Assembly (NCBI RefSeq): GCF_006345805.1
Contig: NC_043006.1
Coordinates: 806,001-870,000 of the forward strand
Direction of reading: 5' to 3'
Length of the DNA: 64,000 nt
Origin: Octopus sinensis
Taxonomy: Eukaryota
Below the pieces are notes generated by a model, which searched no databases, had not been told where the DNA came from, and saw nothing but the letters and a program-made list of their open reading frames with translations. The position numbers and the translations under genes were made by a program. Each line of letters begins with the position of its first letter. Position 1 is the first letter of the stretch. This document shows, piece after piece, positions 26,113 through 32,126 of the stretch.

Positions 26113-28322
26113 GTCTCTCCACACCGGACATAAACATGAAACACAAACACTTCATGTCCATAATACAAGCCATATGTGACAAATATGTCCAATGTGCAGG
26201 GCCAGCACACACAAGAACAAAAACAGGATCCCTAGAGAAAGGAGGATTCTTATGAGACGACGGACAAGGATTGCAAACCGCCTGAGCAAGCACACAAAAG
26301 TGGTGAGAAGTCTCGGCTCGAAAGAATGCTAATGGAAACTGAGAAAAGTCTACATCAGTCCCATGAAAAGGAGAGAGCAGATAAAGAAGCTTGTAATAGA
26401 AAATATAAAATCAACCCTAAAGCTTTCTTTAAGCTTGCCAAAGAGACAGCCACAGTGCACCAGAGAATAGGACCTCTCTTCCAAAAAGATGGCTCTCTCA
26501 CAGGAAATCCCACGAGGATAAGTGAAATACTGAACGAACAGTTTCCAAAGTGTGTTCACTACACCTCTAGGACACAGGCAAGTAAACAACCCAGAAGAAT
26601 TCTTTGCCACTTTACCAGCGGCCAAAGAGACAAAAATTGAGTACATCAACATCGAAGATGATGATATCACACTAGCCATTGATGAGATTGACACAAACTC
26701 AGCTGCTGGACCTGATGGATTCCCAGCGATCCTTCTCAAATCGTGCAAACGAGCCCTTGCAAAACCGCTACAGCTTCTTTTTCAGAGCTTTCTTGCAAGT
26801 GGTAAGCTCCCAGTCAAACTGAAAGAGGGGGTAATATGCCCTATCCATAAGGGAGGTAACAGAGCAGATGCTAAAAATTATAGGCCTATCTCTCTGACCT
26901 CACACATCAGCAAAGTCATTGAACGAATAGTCCGTAAGAAACTAATCATGTTCCTTGAAGAAAATGACTTACTGTCTGACACCCAGCATGGATTTCGACC
27001 AGGTAGAGGCTGCCTAACACAGCTCCTGCAACACTATGACTGGGTGTTGAAACAGCTACTAAATGGCTCAAATGTGGATGTAATATATCTCGACTTTGCA
27101 AAAGCCTTTGATAAGTCGACCATGGTATGATCTGTCACAAACTGCGTGGTCTCGGCATAGGCGGGAAACTTGGAGAGTGGCTGCACAACTCCTAAAAGAC
27201 AGAAAACAGGCAGTTGTGAGCAATGGAGCCACCTCCAAGGAACGCAAATAACAAGCGGTGTCCCACAGGGCACTGTCTTGGGGCCACTGATGTTCATAGT
27301 GGCCCTTTCAGACATGCCTTCAGTTGCTACGATGACCACCCTTGCTAGCTATGCAGATGACACAAAGTCTCCCACGCAATACAAACCCTGAAAATATTGC
27401 GCATCTGCAACATGAGCGGACACAATACAAGGTGGGCTGAGGACAACAACATGCAGTTTAATGCAGGTAAGTTCCAGGCCCTGCGCTACTGCACACAAAG
27501 GTAATGACGTGAAGACTGGATACACTGGCCCAGGAAGAATTGCAATCCCTGAGTCAAAATCAGTGCGTGACCTGGGCATTGACATGAGCAATGATGCATC
27601 TTTCCAAATGCATATTGCTAATCTGGTGATAAAATGCAGACGGCTAGCTGGATGGATTCTCCGAACTTTCAGAACAAGAGAGAAGGAGACACTGATGGTC
27701 CTATGGAAACATTCGTCCTTAACCGCTTGGACTACTGCTCCCAACTTTGGTCACCACACAATATAAAACAAACAGCAGAATCGAAGCACCTCAGAGAAGC
27801 TACACAAAGAAAATCGTCTCAATGCAAATGTCAGCTACTGGGAAAGACTGAAGGTATTAAACCTCTTCTCCCTGGAGCGGAGGCGGGAGAGATATGCAGT
27901 GATATACATCTGGAAAATCCTGGAGGGTCTTGTCCCAAACTTTGGGCATTCAAAGTTACTCCAACCGCAGAACGGGGCGCCGCTGCGTGGTGCCAAGGAT
28001 TCCAAACATCACCATCAAAATACAGGTCCAGATACTGCAAACAGCTTGGGTTTCAGAGGACCACAGCTCTTAACATCCTCCCTAAATGCCTGAGAGACTT
28101 ACATGGTGTGGATGTGGGTTTCTTTAAAACTAAACTGGATCTCTTCTTGTTGGGAGTCCCAGATGAACCTACCTCACGACAGGAGACACGGATGCGGGCA
28201 GCAGCATCGAACTCCCTTGTTGATCAAGTGCCACGTATCAGAGGTGGATTCACAAACTAGTGTAGCTTTCAGCGGTGGTGCCCCAGCATGGCCGCGGCCT
28301 TCGGGCTAAAACATTTTTAAGG
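26110..28322 (+). mobile_element. CR1/L2-type LINE ORF2 (reverse transcriptase), 5'-truncated, frameshifted
   Basis: AAGPDGFPAILLK, NYRPISLTSHISKVIERIV, QHGFRPGRGC, YLDFAKAFDK (ORF 26552-27130); SGVPQGTVLGPLMF, YADDTK (27170-27391); RLDYCSQLWSP. Flanked by (TA)n. Confidence 0.92.
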
Positions 28323-29744: not shown

Positions 29745-30428
29745 CAATTAAAATATTACATCAGTACACATTACAATATTACAACTGTATGCAATTACAA
29801 TATTATGTTTGTATTACGTCTGGACACATTACAATATTTGGTCTGTACATAATTACAGTGTTACGTTTGTACTGGAAAATCATCTGGCCTGAAGCTAAAA
29901 TATTTTGAATTTTTAAAAAATACTGTAAAGTATGCTTTCTCGAGACAAATATCTCAGTTTAGAAGTCTTACAACAGTGTATATGATCTAACTAGTTTGAA
30001 CTAGTATTGCTTCTGCCGTTAATAAAAGATTTTTATTCGGCATATCGGCTAAATACAAAGATGGTGACCTTTCAATCACTGTTTAACTACATCAGCAAGC
30101 AGCTGATTTCCACTTAGCACGCGGTGAATACTTGCTACTGATGAAGCTCAAAAAAGCAGAAATCTGGATTTAACATTGCCACTGTCGCTACTGATCGATT
30201 TTCGCTCTCTGCTTATATATTTCTGTGTTTTTTTCACCACTATAGGTCTACAACAGATGTTTTTTTGAGAGGAATACTGCAGGTTATAAAGCTTTCAACA
30301 GTATACATTTAAATATGATATACAGATCGCTAAGCTACTAGATAACTATAATATTACGCTTGTATAAAATACAATACTATGTTAGTACATAATTACAATA
30401 TTACATCAGTATATACTTTCAATATTGT
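29745..30428. repeat. Degenerate ~24-bp minisatellite (AATTACAATATTAC...GTAC), interrupted; resumes at ~31260-31410 and ~31645-31750
   Basis: Recurrent ATTACAATATTAC units read directly. Confidence 0.6.
30133..30175 (+). ncRNA. Minimal type I hammerhead-like motif
   Basis: TGCTA-CTGATGA-A-GCT-caaaaa-AGC-A-GAAA-TCTGGAT-T-TAACA. Intact CUGAUGA/GAAA core, one mismatch in stem I, near-palindromic stem III. Confidence 0.55.
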
Positions 30429-30709
30429 ATTCCACTGAATTTAGATAAATCATCCTCCGAACAGACGGTCAGTAGCGACGCCTGCTGGGTTCGGCTACTC
30501 TGCATTCATAAAGGGCAAATACCCTGAAACATGTCTGCAGGTGCCTGACCAGCAAGGGGAAGCGGCTGACATCCCCTGTTCGAAGGTTATAATGGACACA
30601 GGTTCGTGTGTCATATAGCTAGCTAGAGGTGATGGCCTCTTGCAGCTAATCTACGGCAGCTTTCGTCCTATATTTATGGACTGCCATATTAGCTTGGCGA
30701 TAACTATTA
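30429..30709 (+). mobile_element. 281-bp structured retrozyme-like insert with degenerate hammerhead, flanked by a 16-bp direct repeat
   Basis: ATACTTTCAATATTGT at 30413-30428 and 30710-30725. Nested long hairpin with CTGCA-ttcataa-AGGG-caaata-CCCT-GAAAC-AT-GTC-TGCAG at its apex, followed by further hairpins. Confidence 0.55.
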
Positions 30710-30724
30710 ATACTTTCAATATTG

Positions 30725-31250
30725 TTTTTACTTGTGTCAGTCAAAGACTGCAGTCATGTTGGGGCAACACCAGGAAGAGTTTTACCCGAACGCTCCCTGT
30801 ACTTCTTCTTTAAAGTTTGGTACTATTTTATCGGGCTCGTTTTGCCGAACCGCTTATGGGGACGTACACAAACAAGCACCGGTCGTCAAGCAGTAGAGAG
30901 GAACAAACACCCAACACACATACATTTGTAAACAAACACACACACACAGGCACAAAAACACACACGAACGAACACACACGCGCTCGCATACACACACGCA
31001 CACGCACACTCACACACACGCATACACACATGCATACATACACACGCACACTCACACACACGCATACACACATGCATACACACATATGTACAACAAGCGT
31101 CTTTCAATTCCTATCTATCAAATCTACTCACACGGCTTTGGTTGACCCGAAGCTATTGCAGTAGACACTTACTCAAGTTGCCATGTGGCGGGACTGAACC
31201 TAGAACCTTATAGTTGTGAAGCAGTGAAGCATATTTCTTACCATACGGTA
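30725..31250 (-). mobile_element. SINE family B, diverged full-length copy with expanded internal (CA)n
   Basis: Shares head and tail motifs with 29175-29570 in reverse. Confidence 0.7.
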
Positions 31251-31412
31251 GACAGTCATAATATTACGGCTATACACAATCACAACATTACATCTCTATG
31301 CAATTACGATATCGTATATACGTGAGAATCACAGAATTAAGTTTGTACATAATAGAATGTTTTATCAGAAAGACAGTACAGTTTTATGCCAATATATAAT
31401 TACAATTTTATA

Positions 31413-31643
31413 AGGCGGCGAACTGGCAGAAACGTTAGCACGCCGGGCGAAATGCGTAGCCGTATTTCGTCTGCCGTTACGTTCTGAGTTCAAATTCCGC
31501 CGAGGTCGACTTTGCCTTTCATCCTTTCGGGGTCGATAAAGTAAGTACCAGTTACGCACTGGGGTCGATGTAATCGACTTAATCCATTTGTCTGTCCTTG
31601 TTTGTCCCTTCTGTGTTTAGCCCCTTGTGGATAGTAAAGAAAT
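31413..31643 (+). mobile_element. SINE family A, full-length with 21-bp target-site duplication
   Basis: ATATATAATTACAATTTTATA at 31392-31412 and 31644-31664 flanks a complete copy. Confidence 0.9.
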
Positions 31644-32126
31644 ATATATAATTACAATTTTATATCTGTAAAGAGATTTCATATAGCAACTGTACTCAGT
31701 ACAATCTATGCATGCAATATTGCGAGCGTACACTATGCAATATCCCGTTCTATATCCAATTCGTCTTAATATAGAGAAATAGTTATAGAGGAGAAATATA
31801 GGTTGAAGTATATTCTCTTTCACACGAAACAATTGTTTTTGTTTTTTTTTTCATTTCGTCAACGTTGCTAACAGCAGAATGGATCAGCCAACTCGCTAAC
31901 ACCTCTCCTCTCTCTAAACATTAATAATGGATTGGATCGGACGCTTTGCCAACGTCCACCCATCATTATATATACATACGATTGTTGCTATTGGCAACCA
32001 AAGCGATAATATCCACTATCACTTCTGCTCTATTATCACCACCATCACTGCCACTGCTACCACCACCATCACCATCACAGATGCCATCATCAGCAAGACC
32101 GCCGCCGCCACCACCACCACCACCAC

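What the first reader, a model, noticed from the sequence alone, without database searches (positions are those of the whole stretch)
30413..30725. 281-nt retrozyme-like insert: long rod hairpin with a hammerhead fold at its tip, bracketed by a perfect 16-bp direct repeat
Seen: ATACTTTCAATATTGT flanks both sides (30413-28, 30710-25) of a relatively GC-rich non-coding island inside an AT-rich minisatellite. Nested complementarity: CGAACAG/CTGTTCG, GTCAG/CTGAC, GCTGG/CCAGC and GGC-AC-CTGCA/TGCAG-GT-GCC close a type I hammerhead topology (stem II AGGG/CCCT, GAAAC, palindromic ACATGT stem III, GUC triplet). The core reads UUCAUAA instead of CUGAUGA. Downstream are further hairpins (GACACA/TGTGTC, AGAGG/CCTCT, GCTAAT..GGCAG/CTGCC..ATTAGC). 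Known: metazoan non-LTR retrozymes are non-coding units of a few hundred nt with type I hammerheads that yield circular RNAs, usually in tandem arrays. Inference: this is a solitary, apparently TSD-bearing member of a possibly undescribed retrozyme-like or structured-RNA mobile family, with either a decayed or an atypical catalytic core.
Basis: partly seen in the sequence, partly recalled or inferred. Interest (0 to 1): 0.75.

Follow-up and report, generated by a model that had tools for sequence, protein, structure and literature searches.

The report
Penelope-spread retrozyme copy, broken ribozyme
This is one shortened copy of a 361-base non-coding jumping repeat, present in over a thousand places, that carries a predicted self-cutting hammerhead RNA (likely disabled here by one base change) and is likely pasted into AT-rich DNA by Penelope-type retrotransposon enzymes, a known kind of element whose insertion ends make the copying mechanism testable.

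Summary
The insert and the 16-bp repeat are real. The element (30426-30712) is 287 nt of a ~361-nt unit. Its 3' 27-mer has 1089 exact matches in this genome, so it is not solitary. The family core is UUGAUAA, the published U3-A8 swap; this copy's UUCAUAA is a rare G5C change that likely kills cleavage. A sister family (52% identical) keeps the same fold with the canonical CUGAUGA core and a fully compensated stem I. A contig from another organism label lacks the element at this site and holds the repeat region once, supporting a target-site duplication. Copies show the Penelope footprint: TA-rich targets, 5' truncation, head-to-head arms and two fixed 3' ends. All 30 distinct scorable two-armed insertions pair one short end with one long end. 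Cleavage, expression and circles were not testable, and no autonomous partner with matching ends was found. Verdict: a new member of the animal non-LTR retrozymes, working like a non-autonomous Penelope-like element. The scan found the same kind of element before, in this and other genomes.

The parts
30426..30712 (+). 5'-truncated single-arm copy (unit positions 1-287 of ~361) of a non-coding retrozyme family; ends at the family's short 3' site
   Evidence: differs from its subfamily majority at 10 of 287 positions
30413..30428 (+). left copy of the target-site duplication (last 3 nt shared with the element's start)
   Evidence: empty site in run X20
30710..30725 (+). right copy of the target-site duplication (first 3 nt shared with the element's end; likely priming microhomology)
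30454..30587 (+). long predicted rod (extended stem I) that carries the hammerhead at its tip
   Evidence: same predicted shape in the 52%-identical sister family
30499..30541 (+). type I hammerhead fold: core 30505-11 (UUCAUAA; family UUGAUAA, G5->C at 30507), stem II 30512-25, GAAA 30526-29, 2-bp palindromic stem III, predicted cut after 30535
30595..30612 (+). conserved hairpin GACACA/TGTGTC, also in the sister family
30616..30648 (+). conserved two-part hairpin (TAGCT/AGCTA around AGAGG/CCTCT) with compensatory changes between families; candidate protein-binding element (inferred)
30339..30425 (.). degenerate 23-24-nt AT-rich minisatellite forming the left flank and target

Best explanation
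This is a truncated copy of a ~361-nt non-coding hammerhead repeat (an animal non-LTR retrozyme) that is likely inserted by the reverse transcriptase and GIY-YIG endonuclease of a Penelope-like element acting in trans. Shown: dispersed family, unit length, two fixed 3' ends, 5' truncation, head-to-head arms, TA-rich targets, an empty orthologous site, and a conserved fold with a C3-G8/U3-A8 swap. Inferred: the enzyme cuts AT-rich DNA and starts cDNA inside the RNA at one of two sites about 57 nt apart; in two-armed insertions one DNA end is primed at each site; the template is uncut multimer or circular RNA; the hammerhead works as a dimer through its palindromic stem III. The window copy is a single arm primed at the short site, and its G5C change likely arose after insertion and likely stops cleavage.
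For: Family: 42 near-full matches at 92-100% among 40 scored of 2478 candidates; 1089 exact hits to a 3' 27-mer, control 0. Ends: 98 of 108 arms from 62 loci end at unit 280-291 or 333-353. 31 of 31 scorable head-to-head pairs join one short and one long end (30 after removing a duplicate; 9 further pairs had an unclassed end and were dropped); 8 of 8 in the sister family (5 dropped). Target: TATATA within 20 nt of 74 of 98 ends versus 81 of 1240 control positions. Empty site: one 358-nt contig of run X20 joins 30425 to 30725. Core: U3 and A8 in 100 of the 100 listed hits of 443; position 5 is non-G in only 8 hits genome-wide. Covariation: 6 of 6 stem I pairs and the 3-8 pair change on both sides, slid controls 0-2 pairs. 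Template: 45 of 98 arms run through the cut site, 2 stop near it, 14 exceed one unit. Helpers exist: RT plus GIY-YIG ORFs of 775-883 aa. Literature: two internal start sites and extension of both strands by a Penelope protein in vitro (PMC11167929); inverted arm and one-ended tail (PMC8557442).
Against: No autonomous element with matching ends was found in 50 GIY-YIG loci: profile hits there were only separate insertions of the clan, and the best end match had 7 mismatches in 26-27 nt. The two arms of an insertion are not more alike than the best outside copy (8 of 22), so copying from one RNA molecule is not shown. Non-simple duplications of 9 nt or more were seen in 10 of 37 two-armed inserts but 0 of 27 single arms of the unbiased sample (control 2 of 186), so the window's type is a minority. 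The empty site rests on one contig and has 15 other letters where the window has 2. Covariation counts reflect mainly two lineages. Cleavage was not tested; only 1 of 9 Xenopus dimers cleaved in the 2026 preprint.
Confidence: 0.85

Rival explanations
1. The units are only detached terminal repeats (pLTR stubs) of an autonomous Penelope-like element that I did not sample, not an independent non-coding lineage.
For: Same footprint as autonomous elements; most hammerheads of such elements occur as solo stubs (PMC4209133); only 150 of 5029 GIY-YIG candidates were scored.
Against: Unit position 361 joins straight to position 1 in tandem copies, up to about 3.2 units (L031); no RT-like ORF lies in the 50 loci scanned; several subfamilies keep this head-to-tail non-coding joint.
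Confidence: 0.08
2. Head-to-head arms come from fold-back (self-primed) second-strand synthesis rather than priming at both DNA ends.
For: Self-priming was proposed for palindromic junctions in rotifer elements (PMC3846280); 3 of 30 pairs have 5' ends within 5 nt.
Against: 27 of 30 pairs have unequal 5' ends, uncorrelated (rho -0.08), and either arm can be the longer (16 versus 11).
Confidence: 0.15
3. A SINE-like or DNA-level repeat in which the hammerhead look is incidental or long dead.
For: No cleavage or expression data; no pile-up of 5' ends at the cut site; no Rfam hit.
Against: The core letters stay fixed between families while stem I is wholly replaced with compensation; the stem III hexamer is a palindrome in 73 of 91 copies, including two double-change variants.
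Confidence: 0.06

Closest known systems
Animal non-LTR retrozymes (Cervera & de la Pena 2020, PMC7229834; mussel units 350-390 nt; Li et al. bioRxiv 10.64898/2026.07.22.740005)
   Same: Non-coding ~360-nt unit, GC under 50%, type I hammerhead with short palindromic stem III, strong predicted self-pairing, tandem copies, long duplications when present, Penelope-like elements in the same genome.
   Different: U3-A8 core; mostly dispersed sub-unit or head-to-head copies rather than long arrays; two fixed 3' ends, which the parts I read do not describe ('tail' and 'target site' 0 hits in the preprint; 'inverted' and 'truncat' 0 hits in PMC7229834). Circles and cleavage are shown for those, not here.
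Penelope-like elements and their pLTR hammerheads (PMC4209133, PMC8557442, PMC3846280, PMC11167929)
   Same: 5' truncation, inverted 5'-truncated arm, tail on one end only, AT/microsatellite targets, optional 8-10-bp duplications, U3-A8 core known from Schistosoma Cercyon elements.
   Different: No ORF; tail about 57 nt (46 in the sister family) against 30-40 nt; no sequence match to a sampled autonomous pLTR.
Natural U3-A8 hammerhead variants (Perreault et al. 2011, PMC3088659)
   Same: Compensatory swap of the tertiary 3-8 pair, reported active in vitro.
   Different: Here fixed in a high-copy animal family whose sister family keeps C3-G8.

Membership tests
Animal non-LTR retrozyme | Type I hammerhead in each unit | tested here: met
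   Family core UUGAUAA...GAAA...GUC with covarying stems; predicted, and this copy has G5C
Animal non-LTR retrozyme | Non-coding unit of about 170-400 nt, GC under 50% | tested here: met
   361-365-nt units, 47% GC, no RT-like ORF in 50 loci
Animal non-LTR retrozyme | Head-to-tail tandem copies | tested here: met
   Partial tandems up to about 3.2 units (L031, L035, L157); most arms are under one unit
Animal non-LTR retrozyme | Self-cleavage in vitro | not testable with these tools
   needs transcription assay
Animal non-LTR retrozyme | Expressed as linear and circular monomers | not testable with these tools
   only contigs of runs not on record as RNA were available
Non-autonomous Penelope-like element | Two internal 3' end sites (tail) and inverted 5'-truncated arm | tested here: met
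   98 of 108 arms, 31 of 31 scorable pairs
Non-autonomous Penelope-like element | AT-rich or microsatellite targets, optional duplication | tested here: met
Non-autonomous Penelope-like element | Sequence homology to the terminal repeat of an autonomous partner | tested here: inconclusive
   none in 50 GIY-YIG loci out of 5029 candidates; only the core letters and stem III palindrome are shared with the dominant family
Autonomous Penelope-like element | RT plus GIY-YIG ORF | tested here: not met
   no such ORF in or joined to the copies

The most novel reading that the evidence does not exclude
One dimeric Penelope enzyme primes both cut DNA ends at once, one at each of two fixed sites on a circular retrozyme RNA, which explains the mirror-image, one-tailed insertions of Penelope elements; and this family switched its hammerhead to the UUGAUAA core and ACAUGU palindrome of the genome's dominant autonomous element, so that parasite and helper ribozymes could pair and cleave as mixed dimers.
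Probability: 0.15. Interest if true: 0.65.

Novelty: new member of a known kind. Interest (0 to 1): 0.38.

Why it matters
The class and the U3-A8 core are in print. What this family adds is integration-footprint evidence that an animal retrozyme is moved by Penelope machinery, a link so far argued from co-occurrence and terminal-repeat homology in the parts of the papers I read. The strict short-plus-long pairing of arms turns the open question of how Penelope elements build inverted, one-tailed insertions into a direct test with a 361-nt protein-free template. The window copy itself is a likely inactive fossil.

Tried and rejected
Rfam scan: no hammerhead hit on the insert. Expression: no RNA holder listed on record; contigs of four runs guessed to be RNA cover the unit but cannot show ends, strand or circles - no evidence either way. 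'The 16-mer is only a minisatellite unit': rejected (empty site). 'G5C marks a mobile sub-lineage': rejected as a major lineage; 4 C, 3 A, 1 T among 8 non-G hits, two of the C hits 3 kb apart; the 4 of 91 come from the hits ranked by likeness to the window. 'Template is the cleaved linear monomer': rejected (45 of 98 arms cross the site). 'Both arms share private variants': not supported. Partner search by blastn, profile and end matching: negative. The retrozyme copy near the ORF in L091 sits in a TA tract on the opposite strand and is a separate insertion. Lead from earlier notes that a second retrotransposon lands in the element: no shared flank at 19 atypical 3' ends; my sample was not built for this, so it is no real test. 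Two stem checks (GTCAG, TAGCT) picked the wrong partner strand and are not used. Sequence look-up in earlier findings returned nothing.

Full report
Observation. The 16-mer is at 30413-28 and 30710-25 and nowhere else in the window within 2 mismatches. The insert folds far better than shuffles on both strands (z -4.5 plus, -5.2 minus), so the strand is set by the hammerhead and the fixed ends, not by energy. It is 47% GC; the left flank is a 23-24-nt AT-rich minisatellite and the right flank is other sequence of 45% GC. Rfam found no hammerhead on it.

Family. A search of the window's own genome (G000, 2.7 Gb) gave 2478 candidates; 40 were scored and gave 42 near-full matches at 92-100%. An exact 3' 27-mer pattern has 1089 hits, control 0. 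Homology ends sharply at 30426 and 30712. Tandem copies show a further 74 nt, giving a unit of about 361 nt whose end joins its start. Clustering 91 copies gave groups 74-94% alike. Four contig sets under four organism labels (C, A, D, E) hold the family.

Core. The family reads UUGAUAA: 76 of 91 aligned copies, 89 of the first 100 of 187 hits, 96 of the first 100 of 443 hits, with U3 and A8 in all 100. None of these listed hits has CUGAUGA; one of 91 has C3 alone and one has G8 alone. This is the C3-G8 to U3-A8 swap, reported as natural and active in vitro (PMC3088659, passage) and in Schistosoma Penelope-like elements (PMC4209133, parts 1-2 of 4). The window copy adds G5C at 30507; only 8 hits genome-wide have a non-G there. 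That G5 is needed for cleavage is recalled, not from a call.

Sister family and covariation. A weak hit in L077 led to a second family (3269 candidates) with CUGAUGA and an ACCCGGGU palindrome. It is 52% identical. Folded separately, 77 of 97 predicted pairs of the window's subfamily have a counterpart within 2 columns, against at most 11 in 60 shuffles. On 31 natural copies (19 + 12), all 6 stem I pairs change on both sides and the 3-8 pair is UA in 17, CG in 12, other in 2; slid controls give 0-2 such pairs. These are essentially two lineages, so the counts are not independent events. The sister family mostly lacks a standard pair at the base of stem II. The stem III hexamer is palindromic in 73 of 91 copies, fitting the dimer model of PMC4209133.

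Insertion footprint. I took 70 loci from the first 100 listed hits (all on contig C1), dropped 8 overlaps and mapped 62. Selection forces one arm per locus to reach unit 282 but does not force where it stops. Of 108 arms, 44 end at unit 280-291 and 54 at 333-353; 5' ends are scattered. Of 40 head-to-head pairs, 31 had both ends classed and all were short plus long (binomial p about 1e-9), 30 after removing a duplicate. The sister family gives 8 of 8 among 13 pairs from its 25 best-scoring loci, and both end sites align to the same columns in the two families. TATATA follows 74 of 98 ends versus 81 of 1240 controls. Non-simple duplications of 9 nt or more flank 10 of 37 two-armed inserts, 0 of 27 single arms and 2 of 186 controls; simple-repeat targets hide others, and single arms L009 and L023 among the best hits have 11-12-nt repeats.

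This site. One 358-nt contig of run X20 (organism E) joins 30425 to 30725 with 15 other letters between and 131 nt on the shorter side. It lacks the element and holds the repeat region once. Contigs of X15 and X17 cross the filled left junction; X15 may be the source sample. This supports insertion with duplication of 10-16 nt, 3 nt at each end being shared with the element, but it is one contig and not a clean empty site.

Mechanism. Published Penelope-like elements show 5' truncation, an inverted arm and a 30-40-nt tail often at one end only (PMC8557442 and PMC3846280, passages). A purified Penelope protein cuts and extends both strands of AT-rich DNA, starts at two internal RNA sites that bound the tail, is predicted to be a dimer, and does not need hammerhead cleavage (PMC11167929, parts 1-2 of 4). 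The family matches each point that a genome can show. 45 of 98 arms run through the cut site, 2 stop near it, and 14 exceed one unit, so the template is uncut multimer or a circle; my data do not separate these. Arm 5' ends are uncorrelated, which argues against simple fold-back, but the arms do not share private variants beyond outside copies (8 of 22), so a single RNA molecule is not shown.

Helper. The genome holds many GIY-YIG elements (147 matches, 150 scored of 5029), with RT plus GIY-YIG ORFs of 775-883 aa; RVT_1 passed its cut-off in 1 of 3 and GIY-YIG in 3 of 3. The dominant family (18 of 30 loci) carries UUGAUAA...GAAACAUGU downstream of its ORF, the same core and palindrome as this retrozyme, while the sister family and a third relative in L083 have CUGAUGA. 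Its ends do not match. The partner is unidentified; the shared core may be chance.

Comparison. It meets the sequence-level features of animal non-LTR retrozymes (PMC7229834, passages and section 14); cleavage and circles were not testable. A 2026 preprint argues from co-occurrence and homology that such retrozymes derive from Penelope-like elements (parts 1 and 3 of 5 and passages). Paper searches listed no paper on this family. I read no supplements; those of PMC4209133 (invertebrate hammerhead lists) and the preprint's species table, which is closed, may bear on novelty. Earlier scan notes, read after my analysis, reach the same reading on other DNA; they are not independent support. Two leads from them, a partner with matching ends and a second element landing in the repeat, were checked in part and not seen.

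Verdict. New member of a known kind; confidence 0.85; interest 0.38.

Noticed in passing
window 29870-30333 (hammerhead-like motif about 30119-30193): An older, separate repeat family (341 candidates, 67-78% identity, fixed 3' end, some inverted partners) with a CUGAUGA hammerhead-like motif lies in the same minisatellite, 100 nt upstream.
   Followed up: partly
L085:674-4374, L089: The young dominant Penelope-like family has a 479-aa upstream frame of no Pfam family overlapping the 781-aa RT/GIY-YIG frame, a CxxxxCxxC linker, and a U3-A8 hammerhead in its 3' region.
   Followed up: partly
L077:140-415, L171-L195: Sister retrozyme family, about 360 nt, CUGAUGA core, mostly mismatched at the base of stem II, same two end sites.
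   Followed up: yes
L083:5954-6273: A third clan member with CUGAUGA and a ACUCGAGU palindrome, inserted in a TA tract.
   Followed up: no
L031:2371-3779: Divergent subfamily array of about 3.2 near-identical units plus an inverted arm, with U7C and an ACGCGU palindrome.
   Followed up: partly
window 26534-28260: Broken LINE-type reverse transcriptase frames, judged by eye from the translation.
   Followed up: no
window 31409-31644 and 31033-31216: High-copy SINE-like repeats found beside many unrelated loci.
   Followed up: no
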